Source of the DNA: a virus
Taxonomy: Duplodnaviria; Caudoviricetes
Strand: one strand, 5' to 3'
DNA: 64,000 nucleotides
IMG/VR virus record: IMGVR_UViG_3300025608_000011
Location: 1 to 64,000 of that record
Both the position numbers and the translations under genes were made by a program. Positions within the stretch are counted from its first letter, which is position 1. Every line of letters begins with the position of its first letter. Shown here piece by piece: positions 20,985 through 21,804 of the stretch. Below the pieces are notes generated by a model. It was not told the origin of the DNA. It ran no database searches and was given only the letters and a program-made list of their open reading frames with translations.

Positions 20985-21363
20985 GTACTCATGTAGATTA
21001 TGTTTGGTCAGACGGAACCTGTTACGGTTCCATCAAAAAAATTCTCATGTGAGTTAAGCTCTGCCGAGACTCGGAAATAGGTGTTTGTTATACTGCTACA
21101 CAATGGGCTCTGACCTTTCCCAACCTACGTCGACATTATGTACTATATAGAGTGCATAAGACGCTCTTATGCTTTCTGTATAATACATTACCTCCCGCCT
21201 CGTTCCTAGTGCTAAGGAGTTTTTATGTGTAATGTGCAGTTTTTCGACAGCCAACAATCTATCTACATCAATCTACGCCCATTGGGGTTTTGCTCAATGT
21301 GTACGTGTCCGATTACATTGTCATCGGTTTTTCCACAGCGGTATTACATCCGGCCCGCCAACC
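20985..21363 (-). ncRNA. Candidate large structured ncRNA (~380 nt) with pseudoknot, downstream of the GIY-YIG gene
   Basis: Longest ORF-free stretch in the window. Multiple stems have G-U pairs only in minus sense. Loop GGTCAGA pairs with downstream TCTGACC, and ATGTAGAT/ATCTACAT pair at long range. Confidence 0.65.
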
Positions 21364-21804
21364 TTAAGTATTGGTTTTGTTAGCCTGTTCTATAAGTGCC
21401 TGTCTTAACTTGTCTGATCCGCCTACACGAACATTTATGATACCGTTGTAGTAGTCATCTGTTTCCAGTACTCTACGATCAAATTGTTCTCTTGCCTCAA
21501 TATATGACATTTCTGCCCTGCTTTTACACAGGTATAGTATTTCTCTTGTGAAGTTTTCTGGGCCTAGTGCAGTGACGTCAGCGTTGAGTCTATCAGATGA
21601 ACCCCAATAGTCTTTCCAGTCTGACTCTTTGTATCCACGTCTTTTATTTTTTTTGCCTTTGAGCGGTGGTTTGGTAGTTTTGAATTTGGCTAGTTTTTTG
21701 CCTATGTATTTTTGCCCAGTAGTGAGATTAGTGATAAGATAAACAAATCCTTCATACTCATCTGGTATAGAGTCTATTGTTTTTCCTTCATAAGTCCACT
21801 GCAT
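21364..21804 (-). CDS. GIY-YIG (Seg-like) endonuclease, single domain, 146 aa
   Basis: GFVYLITNLTTGQKYIGKK, YWGSS, F.REIL, E.REQF and YYN motifs. Start at ATG 21804 (MQWTYEG). Confidence 0.8.
   Translation of the reverse strand: MQWTYEGKTIDSIPDEYEGFVYLITNLTTGQKYIGKKLAKFKTTKPPLKGKKNKRRGYKESDWKDYWGSSDRLNADVTALGPENFTREILYLCKSRAEMSYIEAREQFDRRVLETDDYYNGIINVRVGGSDKLRQALIEQANKTNT

What the first reader, a model, noticed from the sequence alone, without database searches (positions are those of the whole stretch)
20985..21804. Minimal GIY-YIG nuclease followed immediately by a ~380-nt pseudoknotted non-coding RNA candidate
Seen: the longest ORF-free stretch in the window begins right after the nuclease stop codon and is packed with minus-sense helices. 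These are GGCGG/CCGCT (21355-59 with 21337-41), CCGAT/ATCGG (21309-27), CATTG/CAATG, a ~20-bp interrupted hairpin (21138-21188), TAGGT/ACCTA (21123-27 with 21078-82) and GATGGAACC/GGTTCCGTC (21011-34). A TGGG/CCCA hairpin has loop GGTCAGA (21109-15) complementary to TCTGACC ~100 nt downstream (21006-12), forming a pseudoknot. An 8-bp long-range helix (21261-68 with 20991-98) closes ~270 nt. G-U pairs favour an RNA co-oriented with the gp47-gp46-nuclease operon. The 146-aa protein lacks the C-terminal DNA-binding extension typical of Seg/I-TevI homing endonucleases but has a basic KTTKPPLKGKKNKRR loop. Known: some compact nucleases gain specificity from an adjacent structured RNA (IscB/TnpB omegaRNA, HEARO), and T4 and ColE1 origins are primed by R-loop RNAs. 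Inference: either a GIY-YIG ribonucleoprotein, possibly RNA-guided, or an RNA-primed origin acting with the adjacent hairpins and gp46/47. This is the best candidate for an undescribed system in the window.
Basis: partly seen in the sequence, partly recalled or inferred. Interest (0 to 1): 0.9.

Follow-up and report, generated by a model that had tools for sequence, protein, structure and literature searches.

The report
Twin-box phage RNA behind nuclease gene
The gene-free stretch after a small GIY-YIG nuclease gene of this uncultured large phage encodes a real, intricately folded RNA of about 380 bases that does not look like the nuclease's guide; its job is unknown, and this scan has already met the same family in other genomes.

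Summary
Window 20987-21363 (minus sense) is a structured RNA gene. In 29 relatives, 98.9% of proposed pairs form and 18 pairs show compensatory changes (0 of 500 shuffles reach this).

- **Family:** it is common in uncultured aquatic large phages, always in the order gp47, gp46, small ORF, nuclease, RNA. I fetched about 235 loci and saw three subtypes.
- **Known relative:** Rfam does not recognise the window's subtype. In another subtype the first 141 nt are the Polynucleobacter-1 motif (RF01718, function unknown).
- **Not a guide:** the closest cultured homologue (69% identical, phage Melnitz) has no such RNA. Two relatives carry a PD-(D/E)XK nuclease in the same slot, and one has the GIY-YIG gene inverted. 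Identical nucleases sit beside different RNA specificity boxes. No guide-like variable single strand exists.
- **Best functional clue:** two exposed boxes about 60 nt apart carry the same 6-mer in 91 of 98 distinct modules (8 variants). No complementary partner lies nearby.
- **My reading:** I read this, at about 30% odds, as a ColE1-RNA-II-like origin primer. A trans-acting RNA is nearly as likely.

This scan has reported the same "twin-box" family on other genomes. No transcript data could be obtained.

The parts
21364..21804 (-). GIY-YIG nuclease gene, 146 aa, catalytic domain only. The stop codon at 21364-21366 abuts the RNA. The upstream ATG at 21924 (186 aa) is not open in most relatives.
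   Evidence: Pfam PF19835 E 4e-35. phrog_447, a 148-position profile. Relatives' frames open only about 5-20 codons upstream of M41.
21821..22018 (-). Small basic ORF (65 aa) overlapping the gp46 stop. Conserved in position, about 50% identical in relatives. No family match.
22018..23790 (-). gp46/SbcC-like recombination nuclease subunit. gp47/SbcD-like lies at 23787-24797 and a gp55-like late sigma factor at 24854-25699.
20987..21363 (-). Core of the structured non-coding RNA (about 377 nt), subtype A of the twin-box family.
   Evidence: Conserved at 69-86% nt identity behind the nuclease gene in relatives. 60 pairs, 98.9% paired, 18 compensatory. No Rfam match.
21337..21359 (-). Helix 1: 21355-21359 with 21337-21341. 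Invariant G-C core.
   Evidence: One-sided changes only.
21305..21336 (-). Helix 2 (21334-21336 with 21305-21307) enclosing hairpin 3 (21323-21327 with 21309-21313).
   Evidence: Compensatory U-A/A-U and C-G/U-A changes.
21265..21300 (-). Helix 4 (21294-21300 with 21265-21271) enclosing hairpin 5 (21285-21287 with 21278-21280). Many relatives have a second, inserted hairpin here.
   Evidence: 3-4 compensatory pairs each.
21246..21263 (-). Hairpin 6: 21259-21263 with 21246-21250.
   Evidence: 3-4 compensatory pairs.
21093..21239 (-). Long-range helix 7: 21226-21231 with 21097-21102, plus 21236-21239 with 21093-21096. It closes a domain of about 130 nt.
   Evidence: Four covarying sequence versions. 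5 compensatory pairs. 100% paired.
21192..21219 (-). Hairpin 8 (21216-21219 with 21192-21195) presenting a near-invariant 12-nt loop (AYUAGGAACGAA).
   Evidence: 3 compensatory pairs.
21139..21187 (-). Variable-length hairpin 9. In relatives it ranges from a GNRA-capped 2-bp stub to about 50 nt.
21077..21128 (-). Invariant core: 21123-21128 with 21077-21082 (crosses helix 7), hairpin 21119-21122 with 21104-21107, and loop 21109-21115.
   Evidence: A 24-nt stretch is identical in more than 120 viral contigs. There is no variation, so pairing is untested.
21006..21012 (-). Alternatively it pairs with the RNA's 5' end at 21358-21363.
   Evidence: Both pairings are 99-100% complementary and invariant.
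21043..21054 (-). Box 1 (ACUCA plus 6-mer CAUGAG), displayed in the loop of a short variable stem.
21011..21034 (-). Hairpin between the boxes: 21026-21034 with 21011-21019.
   Evidence: 8 of 10 pairs compensatory across subtypes; 94.6% paired against 70% in shuffles. That alignment is fitted to the model.
20987..20999 (-). Box 2 (AAUCUA plus the same 6-mer CAUGAG), single-stranded.
   Evidence: Model R1, built without the window, scores 65.4 bits (E 4e-12) on 20987-21066.
20894..20981 (-). Three downstream hairpins. A terminator-like hairpin lies at 20957-20981. A hairpin at 20915-20934 is conserved in all subtypes and has tandem G-A and a GAUA loop. A second terminator-like hairpin lies at 20894-20913. 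They may belong to the RNA's 3' end.
   Evidence: The stems of the first and third covary in relatives (read from the alignment).
20080..20862 (-). Next gene (260 aa, no family), with a T4-type late promoter TATAAATA at 20883-20890. Present downstream in only one related contig.

Best explanation
**What it is (shown)**
- An autonomous gene for a complex-folded non-coding RNA of about 380 nt, perhaps about 470 nt with the downstream hairpins.
- It is read in the same direction as the gp55-gp47-gp46-small ORF-nuclease block.
- It belongs to a large family with at least three subtypes, found in uncultured aquatic large phages.
- One subtype's 5' domain is the Rfam Polynucleobacter-1 motif.

**Anatomy**
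- A variable 5' domain.
- An almost invariant core.
- A 3' "twin-box" module. The same 8-nt word appears twice: once in a hairpin loop and once, about 60 nt later, in a single strand.
- The module is exchanged between phages as a cassette.

**The neighbouring nuclease (inferred)**
The GIY-YIG protein is not its guide-dependent partner. That slot holds a small DNA nuclease of either the GIY-YIG or the PD-(D/E)XK fold. It is most simply a junction or repair nuclease working with gp46/47, or a domesticated homing enzyme.

**How it most likely works (inferred, about 30% odds)**
- The RNA acts in cis on the DNA it is made from, like ColE1 RNA II.
- Loop box 1 pairs with the template strand at box 2. 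This works only if the two boxes are identical.
- The pairing anchors a persistent RNA-DNA hybrid, which primes or marks replication next to the conserved downstream hairpins.

None of the steps after "the boxes are identical and exposed" is shown.
For: **Structure**
- 98.9% of cells paired against 92.6% in shuffles and 33-39% in slid controls.
- 18 compensatory pairs and 119 cells, with 0 of 500 shuffles reaching this.
- Further compensatory helices.
- G-U pairs fix the strand.

**Family and synteny**
- 111 of 111 type-A loci with enough upstream DNA have the nuclease and gp46 upstream.
- So do 101 loci of the other subtypes.
- The window's module is found by a model built without it.
- L013 and L083 match RF01718 at 72 and 67 bits.

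**Independence from the nuclease**
-.

**Twin boxes**
- 91 of 98 modules carry identical 6-mers, in 8 variants.
- Only the sister box tracks each variant.
- No complement lies at a fixed offset, and none is enriched in 1.7 Mb of flanks: 68 found against about 104 expected.
- Cassette exchange: L211 and L218 are identical for about 215 nt, then the whole module differs.

**The ColE1 precedent**
An upstream RNA stretch that pairs with the downstream template strand appears in the DNA as a direct repeat. This rests on my own knowledge of Masukata and Tomizawa 1990 and was not checked in the library.
Against:
- The cumulative GC-skew minimum lies at about 25.7 kb, at the divergent gene switch, not at the RNA.
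- A 40-nt invariant pseudoknotted core is more than a primer would seem to need.
- Terminator-like hairpins follow box 2.
- No T4-type origin is known to use such an RNA.
- No cultured phage carries the RNA.
- The nuclease or an analogue is present next to the RNA in 214 of 214 complete loci, so some functional tie between them cannot be excluded.
- Box identity could equally be read by an unlinked protein, as with iterons and Rep or nut sites and N.
Confidence: 0.3

Rival explanations
1. A trans-acting stable RNA (scaffold, decoy or ribozyme) that acts on a host or phage factor. The invariant core binds a conserved partner. The two boxes are twin binding sites for one variable partner, either a protein or an RNA encoded elsewhere in the phage.
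For: - The extreme conservation of the core: a 24-nt stretch is identical in more than 120 contigs while gp46 drops to 54% identity.
- There is precedent in large ornate phage RNAs of unknown role (GOLLD, ROOL; own knowledge).
- Both boxes are exposed.
- The RNA keeps its place when the neighbouring nuclease is swapped or inverted.
Against: - No complementary partner in up to about 14 kb of flanks per locus.
- Neither adjacent protein tracks the boxes. Identical p65 and identical nuclease occur with different boxes.
- A partner that changes between near-identical phages must itself be phage-encoded, and none was found.
Confidence: 0.27
2. The adjacency is parasitic. The nuclease is a free-standing homing endonuclease, or a domesticated one, that sits next to and targets the ultra-conserved RNA gene. 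This would resemble seg/mob genes beside conserved T4 genes. The RNA's own function is unrelated.
For: - The family is annotated as homing endonuclease and lies in other contexts elsewhere, for example after nrdB in Melnitz, a classic endonuclease hot spot.
- A second nuclease fold occupies the same slot.
- The nuclease is 72-91% identical, more alike between contigs than gp46 (57-92%, mostly 70-84%) or p65 (about 50%).
- The region is mosaic.
Against: - No nuclease-free allele among 214 complete loci.
- The protein has no DNA-binding domain.
- The replacement enzyme is of a resolvase-like family (phrog_244). This fits a housekeeping junction nuclease as well.
Confidence: 0.15
3. A cis-acting 3'-UTR element of the late operon. 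It would shield the mRNA from 3' exonucleases, or modify RNA polymerase for read-through as HK022 put RNA does.
For: - It lies at the end of the transcription unit, starts at the stop codon, and is followed by two terminator-like hairpins.
Against: - In L301 it is not co-oriented with the nuclease gene.
- About 10 of 111 loci have roughly 300 nt inserted in front of it.
- Its size, pseudoknots and twin boxes are unexplained.
Confidence: 0.1
4. One reading: the RNA is the specificity subunit (guide) of the minimal GIY-YIG nuclease.
For: - The nuclease lacks a DNA-binding domain.
- Nuclease and RNA are adjacent in essentially all loci.
Against: - Melnitz has the protein at 69% identity without the RNA.
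- A PD-(D/E)XK enzyme replaces it in L307 and L311, and the gene is inverted in L301.
- Identical proteins sit beside different boxes.
- The best protein column reaches only 0.39 relative mutual information with the boxes.
- The variable RNA parts are paired stems or 6-8-nt boxes, not a 15-20-nt free guide.
Confidence: 0.04

Closest known systems
Polynucleobacter-1 RNA motif (Rfam RF01718; Weinberg et al. 2010, PMC2864571)
   Same: - Same genomic position: directly behind the same small gene family. The 2010 supplement says downstream of GOS11034 genes resembling cyanophage PSSM2_218.
- Sister subtype B matches the model over its first 141 nt and continues into the same twin-box module as the window's RNA.
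- Function unknown in both.
   Different: - The window's 5' domain is not recognised by RF01718, even at E up to 10.
- The Rfam motif covers 141 nt, while the RNA here is about 380 nt.
- The invariant core, long-range helix and twin boxes are not part of the published motif.
ColE1 RNA II (plasmid replication primer)
   Same: - A folded RNA of several hundred nt.
- An exposed upstream stretch must match a downstream stretch so that RNA can pair with template DNA. This shows up in the DNA as a direct repeat (own knowledge).
- The twin boxes have exactly that geometry.
   Different: - No antisense RNA I.
- No evidence of a hybrid, of RNase H processing or of initiation.
- Phage rather than plasmid.
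- No sequence or Rfam similarity.
OMEGA systems (IscB/TnpB with omega RNA, HEARO)
   Same: A compact nuclease gene next to a large structured RNA.
   Different: - A different nuclease fold.
- No transposon ends.
- No guide segment.
- Gene and RNA separate in relatives.
- No Rfam HEARO match.
GOLLD and ROOL large ornate RNAs
   Same: Large, multi-helix, phage-borne RNAs without a known function.
   Different: - No model match.
- Smaller.
- Fixed synteny with a recombination-gene block rather than with tRNA clusters.
T4 Seg-type free-standing GIY-YIG homing endonucleases
   Same: The same catalytic domain family (PF19835), in an intergenic position in a T4-like gene block.
   Different: - Only the catalytic domain (146 aa).
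- Fixed in every genome of the clade rather than sporadic.

Membership tests
Polynucleobacter-1 RNA (RF01718) | Score at or above the Rfam gathering threshold (37 bits). | tested here: not met
   No match in window 19500-23000 at E up to 10, nor in the whole window at gathering. Relatives L013 and L083 score 71.8 and 67.4 bits.
Polynucleobacter-1 RNA (RF01718) | Lies directly downstream of the GOS11034 / PSSM2_218-like small gene. | tested here: inconclusive
   The RNA starts at the stop codon of the GIY-YIG gene. In L013 and L083 the Rfam match starts at the stop codon of the orthologous gene. I did not check that GOS11034 is this family.
Polynucleobacter-1 RNA (RF01718) | Architecture: two 5' hairpins, then a multistem junction. 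| tested here: inconclusive
   The window has hairpin 1, hairpin 2/3 and helix 4 enclosing one hairpin (two in many relatives). The order is similar. There is no common alignment.
RNA-guided nuclease system (OMEGA-like) | Obligate co-occurrence of nuclease and RNA. | tested here: not met
   Melnitz has the gene without the RNA. L307 and L311 have the RNA with a PD-(D/E)XK gene.
RNA-guided nuclease system (OMEGA-like) | A variable single-stranded guide of about 15-20 nt at one end of a conserved scaffold. | tested here: not met
   The variable parts are paired stems or the 6-8-nt boxes. The 3' tail runs into a hairpin.
RNA-guided nuclease system (OMEGA-like) | Protein and RNA co-vary. | tested here: not met
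   Maximum relative mutual information is 0.39. Identical proteins occur with different boxes.
ColE1-type primer RNA / R-loop origin | An upstream RNA segment identical to the downstream non-template DNA. | tested here: met
   Box 1 equals box 2 in 91 of 98 modules. Box 1 sits in a loop and box 2 is unpaired.
ColE1-type primer RNA / R-loop origin | A persistent RNA-DNA hybrid and DNA synthesis starting at its end. | not testable with these tools
   No read data. GC skew is uninformative.
Group I intron carrying a GIY-YIG gene | Ribozyme core matching RF00028, and flanking exons of one gene. | tested here: not met
   No Rfam match in the window or in 8 relatives. gp46 ends with its own stop, and the downstream gene differs between loci.
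tRNA / tmRNA | Detected by ARAGORN or the Rfam tmRNA models. | tested here: not met
Seg-type homing endonuclease | GIY-YIG catalytic domain. | tested here: met
   PF19835, E 4e-35.
Seg-type homing endonuclease | A C-terminal DNA-binding domain and sporadic presence among close relatives. | tested here: not met
   The 146 aa are filled by the 123-position catalytic profile. The gene is present in 212 of 214 complete loci, and the other two carry a different nuclease.

The most novel reading that the evidence does not exclude
The twin-box RNA and the small nuclease beside it form a new kind of phage replication or recombination start site. Loop box 1 invades the duplex at box 2 by 8-nt identity and forms an R-loop. 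The neighbouring structure-specific nuclease, whether GIY-YIG or PD-(D/E)XK, cuts that R-loop to give the primer end. The exchangeable box cassette sets which co-infecting relatives can use the site.
Probability: 0.1. Interest if true: 0.85.

Novelty: new variant of a known kind. Interest (0 to 1): 0.6.

Why it matters
**Why the RNA is of interest**
- Current Rfam catches only the 5' part of one subtype.
- A full-length family model would annotate hundreds of phage contigs.
- It would also explain why assemblies of these phages break at this spot.

**Why the twin boxes are of interest**
They are a rare case of parallel rather than complementary covariation. This points to a mechanism that depends on identity, such as an RNA-to-template hybrid or a matched pair of binding sites. 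It can be tested cleanly with single and double box mutants.

**Caution for other surveys**
A minimal nuclease next to a big RNA is not enough to call an RNA-guided system.

Tried and rejected
- **Known RNA families.** Rfam at a permissive threshold on the locus, at gathering on the whole window, and on 8 relatives gave no family for the window's RNA. There was no tRNA or tmRNA.
- **Cultured phages.** blastn of all three RNA subtypes found nothing.
- **Group I intron.** Rejected: no core match and no exons.
- **Protein coding.** Rejected for the sense strand (about 8 stops per frame). The antisense strand has open frames (median 80 aa stop to stop). However, lengths differ by non-multiples of 3 and helices covary, so I treat those frames as a by-product of composition.
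- **Cis partner for the boxes.** None found.
- **Protein reader among the neighbours.** The nuclease does not track the boxes. p65 columns reach 0.6-0.67 relative mutual information, but identical p65 sequences occur with different boxes, so I take this as shared ancestry.
- **Reverse transcriptase** for a template-jump model: none in the 98-kb record, which is only 27% complete.
- **Promoter in front of the next gene.** The conserved word TTGAGCGNNAGCGAA is not a repeated promoter in the window.
- **Contig ends as genome termini.** The clustering of ends inside the RNA is better explained by assembly breaks at sequence shared by co-occurring strains.
- **Degenerate twin-box scan of prokaryote genomes.** It gave 120 mostly chance hits, and only one was real.
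- **Solved structures.** No sequence match for the nuclease.
- **Small-phage claim.** I saw no such context in about 235 loci and did not test it further.
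Full report
**Setting.** The window is part of a 98-kb IMG/VR phage record, estimated 27% complete.
- On the minus strand it carries a T4-like block: a gp55-like late sigma factor (24854-25699, phrog_12791, E 3e-78), gp47/SbcD (23787-24797), gp46/SbcC (22018-23790) and a 65-aa ORF (21821-22018).
- Next comes a 146-aa GIY-YIG gene (21364-21804; PF19835, E 4e-35, filling the whole 123-position catalytic profile).
- The closest cultured gp46 proteins are from jumbo phages such as Phosso and PA5oct, at about 48% identity.
- After the nuclease stop codon, 501 nt carry no plausible gene. 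This is the longest such gap in the window.

- The minus-sense fold is more stable than shuffles (z -3.57; plus sense -2.70).
- The decisive evidence is comparative. A protein-guided scan found more than 600 viral contigs with a 70-91% identical nuclease. The 400-450 nt behind its stop codon are conserved at 69-86% nucleotide identity.
- On a 29-sequence alignment that excludes the window, a 60-pair structure is 98.9% paired. Shuffled columns give 92.6% and slid partners 33-39%.
- It has 18 pairs and 119 cells with changes on both sides, which none of 500 shuffles reach.
- Covariation supports these helices in window coordinates:
  - 21334-21336:21305-21307
  - 21323-21327:21309-21313
  - 21294-21300:21265-21271
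  - 21285-21287:21278-21280
  - 21259-21263:21246-21250
  - the long-range 21226-21231:21097-21102
  - 21216-21219:21192-21195
  - the base of the variable hairpin 21139-21187
  - 21026-21034:21011-19
- Across subtypes, the last of these has 8 of 10 compensatory pairs (on a model-fitted alignment).
- Many G-U pairs exist only in the minus sense.
- The sense strand has about 8 stops per frame in 79 distinct relatives.
They are neither supported nor refuted, and the pseudoknot competes with an equally invariant 5'-end helix.

**What family is it?** Rfam 15 has no match for the window's RNA, even at E 10.
- Two more distant loci, L013 and L083, match Polynucleobacter-1 (RF01718) at 72 and 67 bits (gathering score 37). 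The match covers exactly the first 141 nt after the orthologous stop codon.
- The 2010 description says the motif lies downstream of an uncharacterised gene family resembling a cyanophage gene. It also says the 3' half is not always detected and that no purified phage had it (PMC2864571 supplement).
- Scans with an invariant 24-mer and with a subtype-B/C hairpin word brought in about 235 loci.
- They fall into three subtypes with different 5' domains:
  - A, the window's, with 79 distinct sequences of 324-471 nt
  - B, whose 5' domain is the Rfam motif
  - C
- Subtypes B and C together give 56 distinct sequences.
- All three share a 3' module. A model of that module built from subtype A without the window scores 65.4 bits on 20987-21066. 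It scores 21-35 bits on B and C and finds nothing in phage Melnitz.
- Subtype C has its own covarying long-range helices.
- No cultured phage has any subtype.
- Earlier reports of this scan describe the same "twin-box" RNA on other genomes. I re-derived the points I use here.

**Is it tied to the nuclease?** In this clade the two are always neighbours.
- 111 of 111 subtype-A loci with enough upstream sequence have the nuclease and gp46 upstream.
- So do 101 subtype-B/C loci. All share one synteny, so co-occurrence may simply be inheritance.
- Against a functional pair:
  - The closest cultured homologue (69% identity, phage Melnitz, after nrdB) is followed by 148 nt with no such RNA.
  - In L307 and L311 the slot holds a PD-(D/E)XK nuclease (PF24608, E 6e-30; phrog_244, "RusA-like resolvase") and the RNA is intact.
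  - In L301 the GIY-YIG gene points the other way.
  - About 10 of 111 loci have roughly 300 nt between the gene and the RNA.
  - No nuclease column tracks the RNA's variable boxes.
  - Identical nuclease proteins stand next to different boxes.
  - Nothing resembles a free 15-20-nt guide.
- Two unrelated small nuclease folds in one slot beside gp46/47 fit a junction or repair nuclease, or a domesticated homing enzyme, better than an RNA-guided one.

**The twin boxes.**
- Box 1 (21043-21054) sits in the loop of a short variable stem. Box 2 (20987-20999) is unpaired, just before a terminator-like hairpin.
- Each box is a constant pentamer (ACUCA or UCUA-type) followed by a 6-mer.
- The 6-mer is the same in both boxes in 91 of 98 distinct modules, with 8 variants spread over all subtypes.
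- No other RNA column tracks the variants.
- No complementary 7-mer sits at a fixed offset within 3 kb.
- Complements of a locus's own box are not enriched in 1.7 Mb of flanks: 68 found against about 104 expected.
- Near-identical RNAs differ by the whole module. L211 and L218 are identical for about 215 nt and then diverge throughout the module. The pairs show the same pattern.
- The module therefore behaves as an exchangeable specificity cassette whose two boxes must match each other.
- Matching direct repeats point to a mechanism that reads identity. I know three precedents (own knowledge):
  - ColE1 RNA II, where an upstream RNA stretch pairs with the downstream template strand
  - iterons with their Rep protein
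  - lambdoid nutL/nutR with N
- The first needs no unseen partner, so I prefer it. It also fits the position next to replication-recombination genes and the conserved hairpins just downstream (20894-20981).
- Against it:
  - GC skew gives no support, with its minimum at the divergent gene switch near 25.7 kb.
  - The invariant core is more than a primer seems to need.
  - No reverse transcriptase is in the record.
  - No expression data could be had.
- My odds:
  - cis-acting origin or primer RNA, about 30%
  - trans-acting RNA with a twice-bound partner, about 27%
  - 3'-UTR element, about 10%
  - guide for the nuclease, about 4%
- Separately, I put about 15% on the neighbouring nuclease being a selfish endonuclease that targets the conserved RNA gene. 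That reading is compatible with any of the four.

**Verdict.**
- The feature is real and is not an artefact.
Its ribonucleoprotein reading is not supported, and its origin reading remains open.
- Novelty is moderate. The gene-RNA association and one subtype's 5' domain were published in 2010. The scan has seen the family before. The full-length RNA, its invariant core and the twin boxes are in no database or paper I could find.

Noticed in passing
window 9430-9512 (-): Match to the Rfam freshwater-2 RNA (RF02980): 77 bits against a gathering score of 49.9. It lies in front of the ORF ending at 9432.
   Followed up: no
window 24854-25699 (-): gp55-like late sigma factor (phrog_12791, E 3e-78). 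The order gp55-gp47-gp46 is the same as in T4, although the closest gp46 proteins are from jumbo phages.
   Followed up: partly
window 20883-20890 (minus sense): The T4-type late promoter word TATAAATA lies about 20 nt before the start of the 260-aa gene. That gene has no family and occurs downstream of the RNA in only one related contig.
   Followed up: partly
L307 (oriented 731-1279) and L311:3333-3899:-: A PD-(D/E)XK nuclease (PF24608; phrog_244, RusA-like resolvase) replaces the GIY-YIG gene between the small ORF and the RNA.
   Followed up: partly
L301: Rearranged locus: baseplate gene, then the GIY-YIG gene on the opposite strand, then the RNA. Here the RNA cannot be co-transcribed with the nuclease gene.
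   Followed up: partly
L326:1-5500 (JBDNIA010000124.1, 72.8 kb): A contig binned into a Crocinitomicaceae MAG carries the same gp47-gp46-small ORF-GIY-YIG-RNA-baseplate locus (module 79.7 bits). This is either a host hint or a mis-binned phage contig.
   Followed up: partly
many loci (e.g. L005, L016, L024, L040, L054, L084, L097): Viral contigs often end 128-147 nt after the nuclease stop codon, or right at the invariant core. This is probably an assembly break where co-occurring strains share identical sequence.
   Followed up: partly
L008, L015, L027, L028, L032, L034: About 750 nt of extra sequence between gp46 and the small ORF. Its content was not examined.
   Followed up: no
window 35069-49813 (+): A single open reading frame of 4914 aa.
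   Followed up: no
window 20915-20934 (-) and the same place in subtypes A, B and C: A 20-nt hairpin with tandem G-A mismatches and a GAUA/GUUA loop, conserved across all subtypes between two variable terminator-like hairpins. It is not repeated elsewhere in the window.
   Followed up: partly
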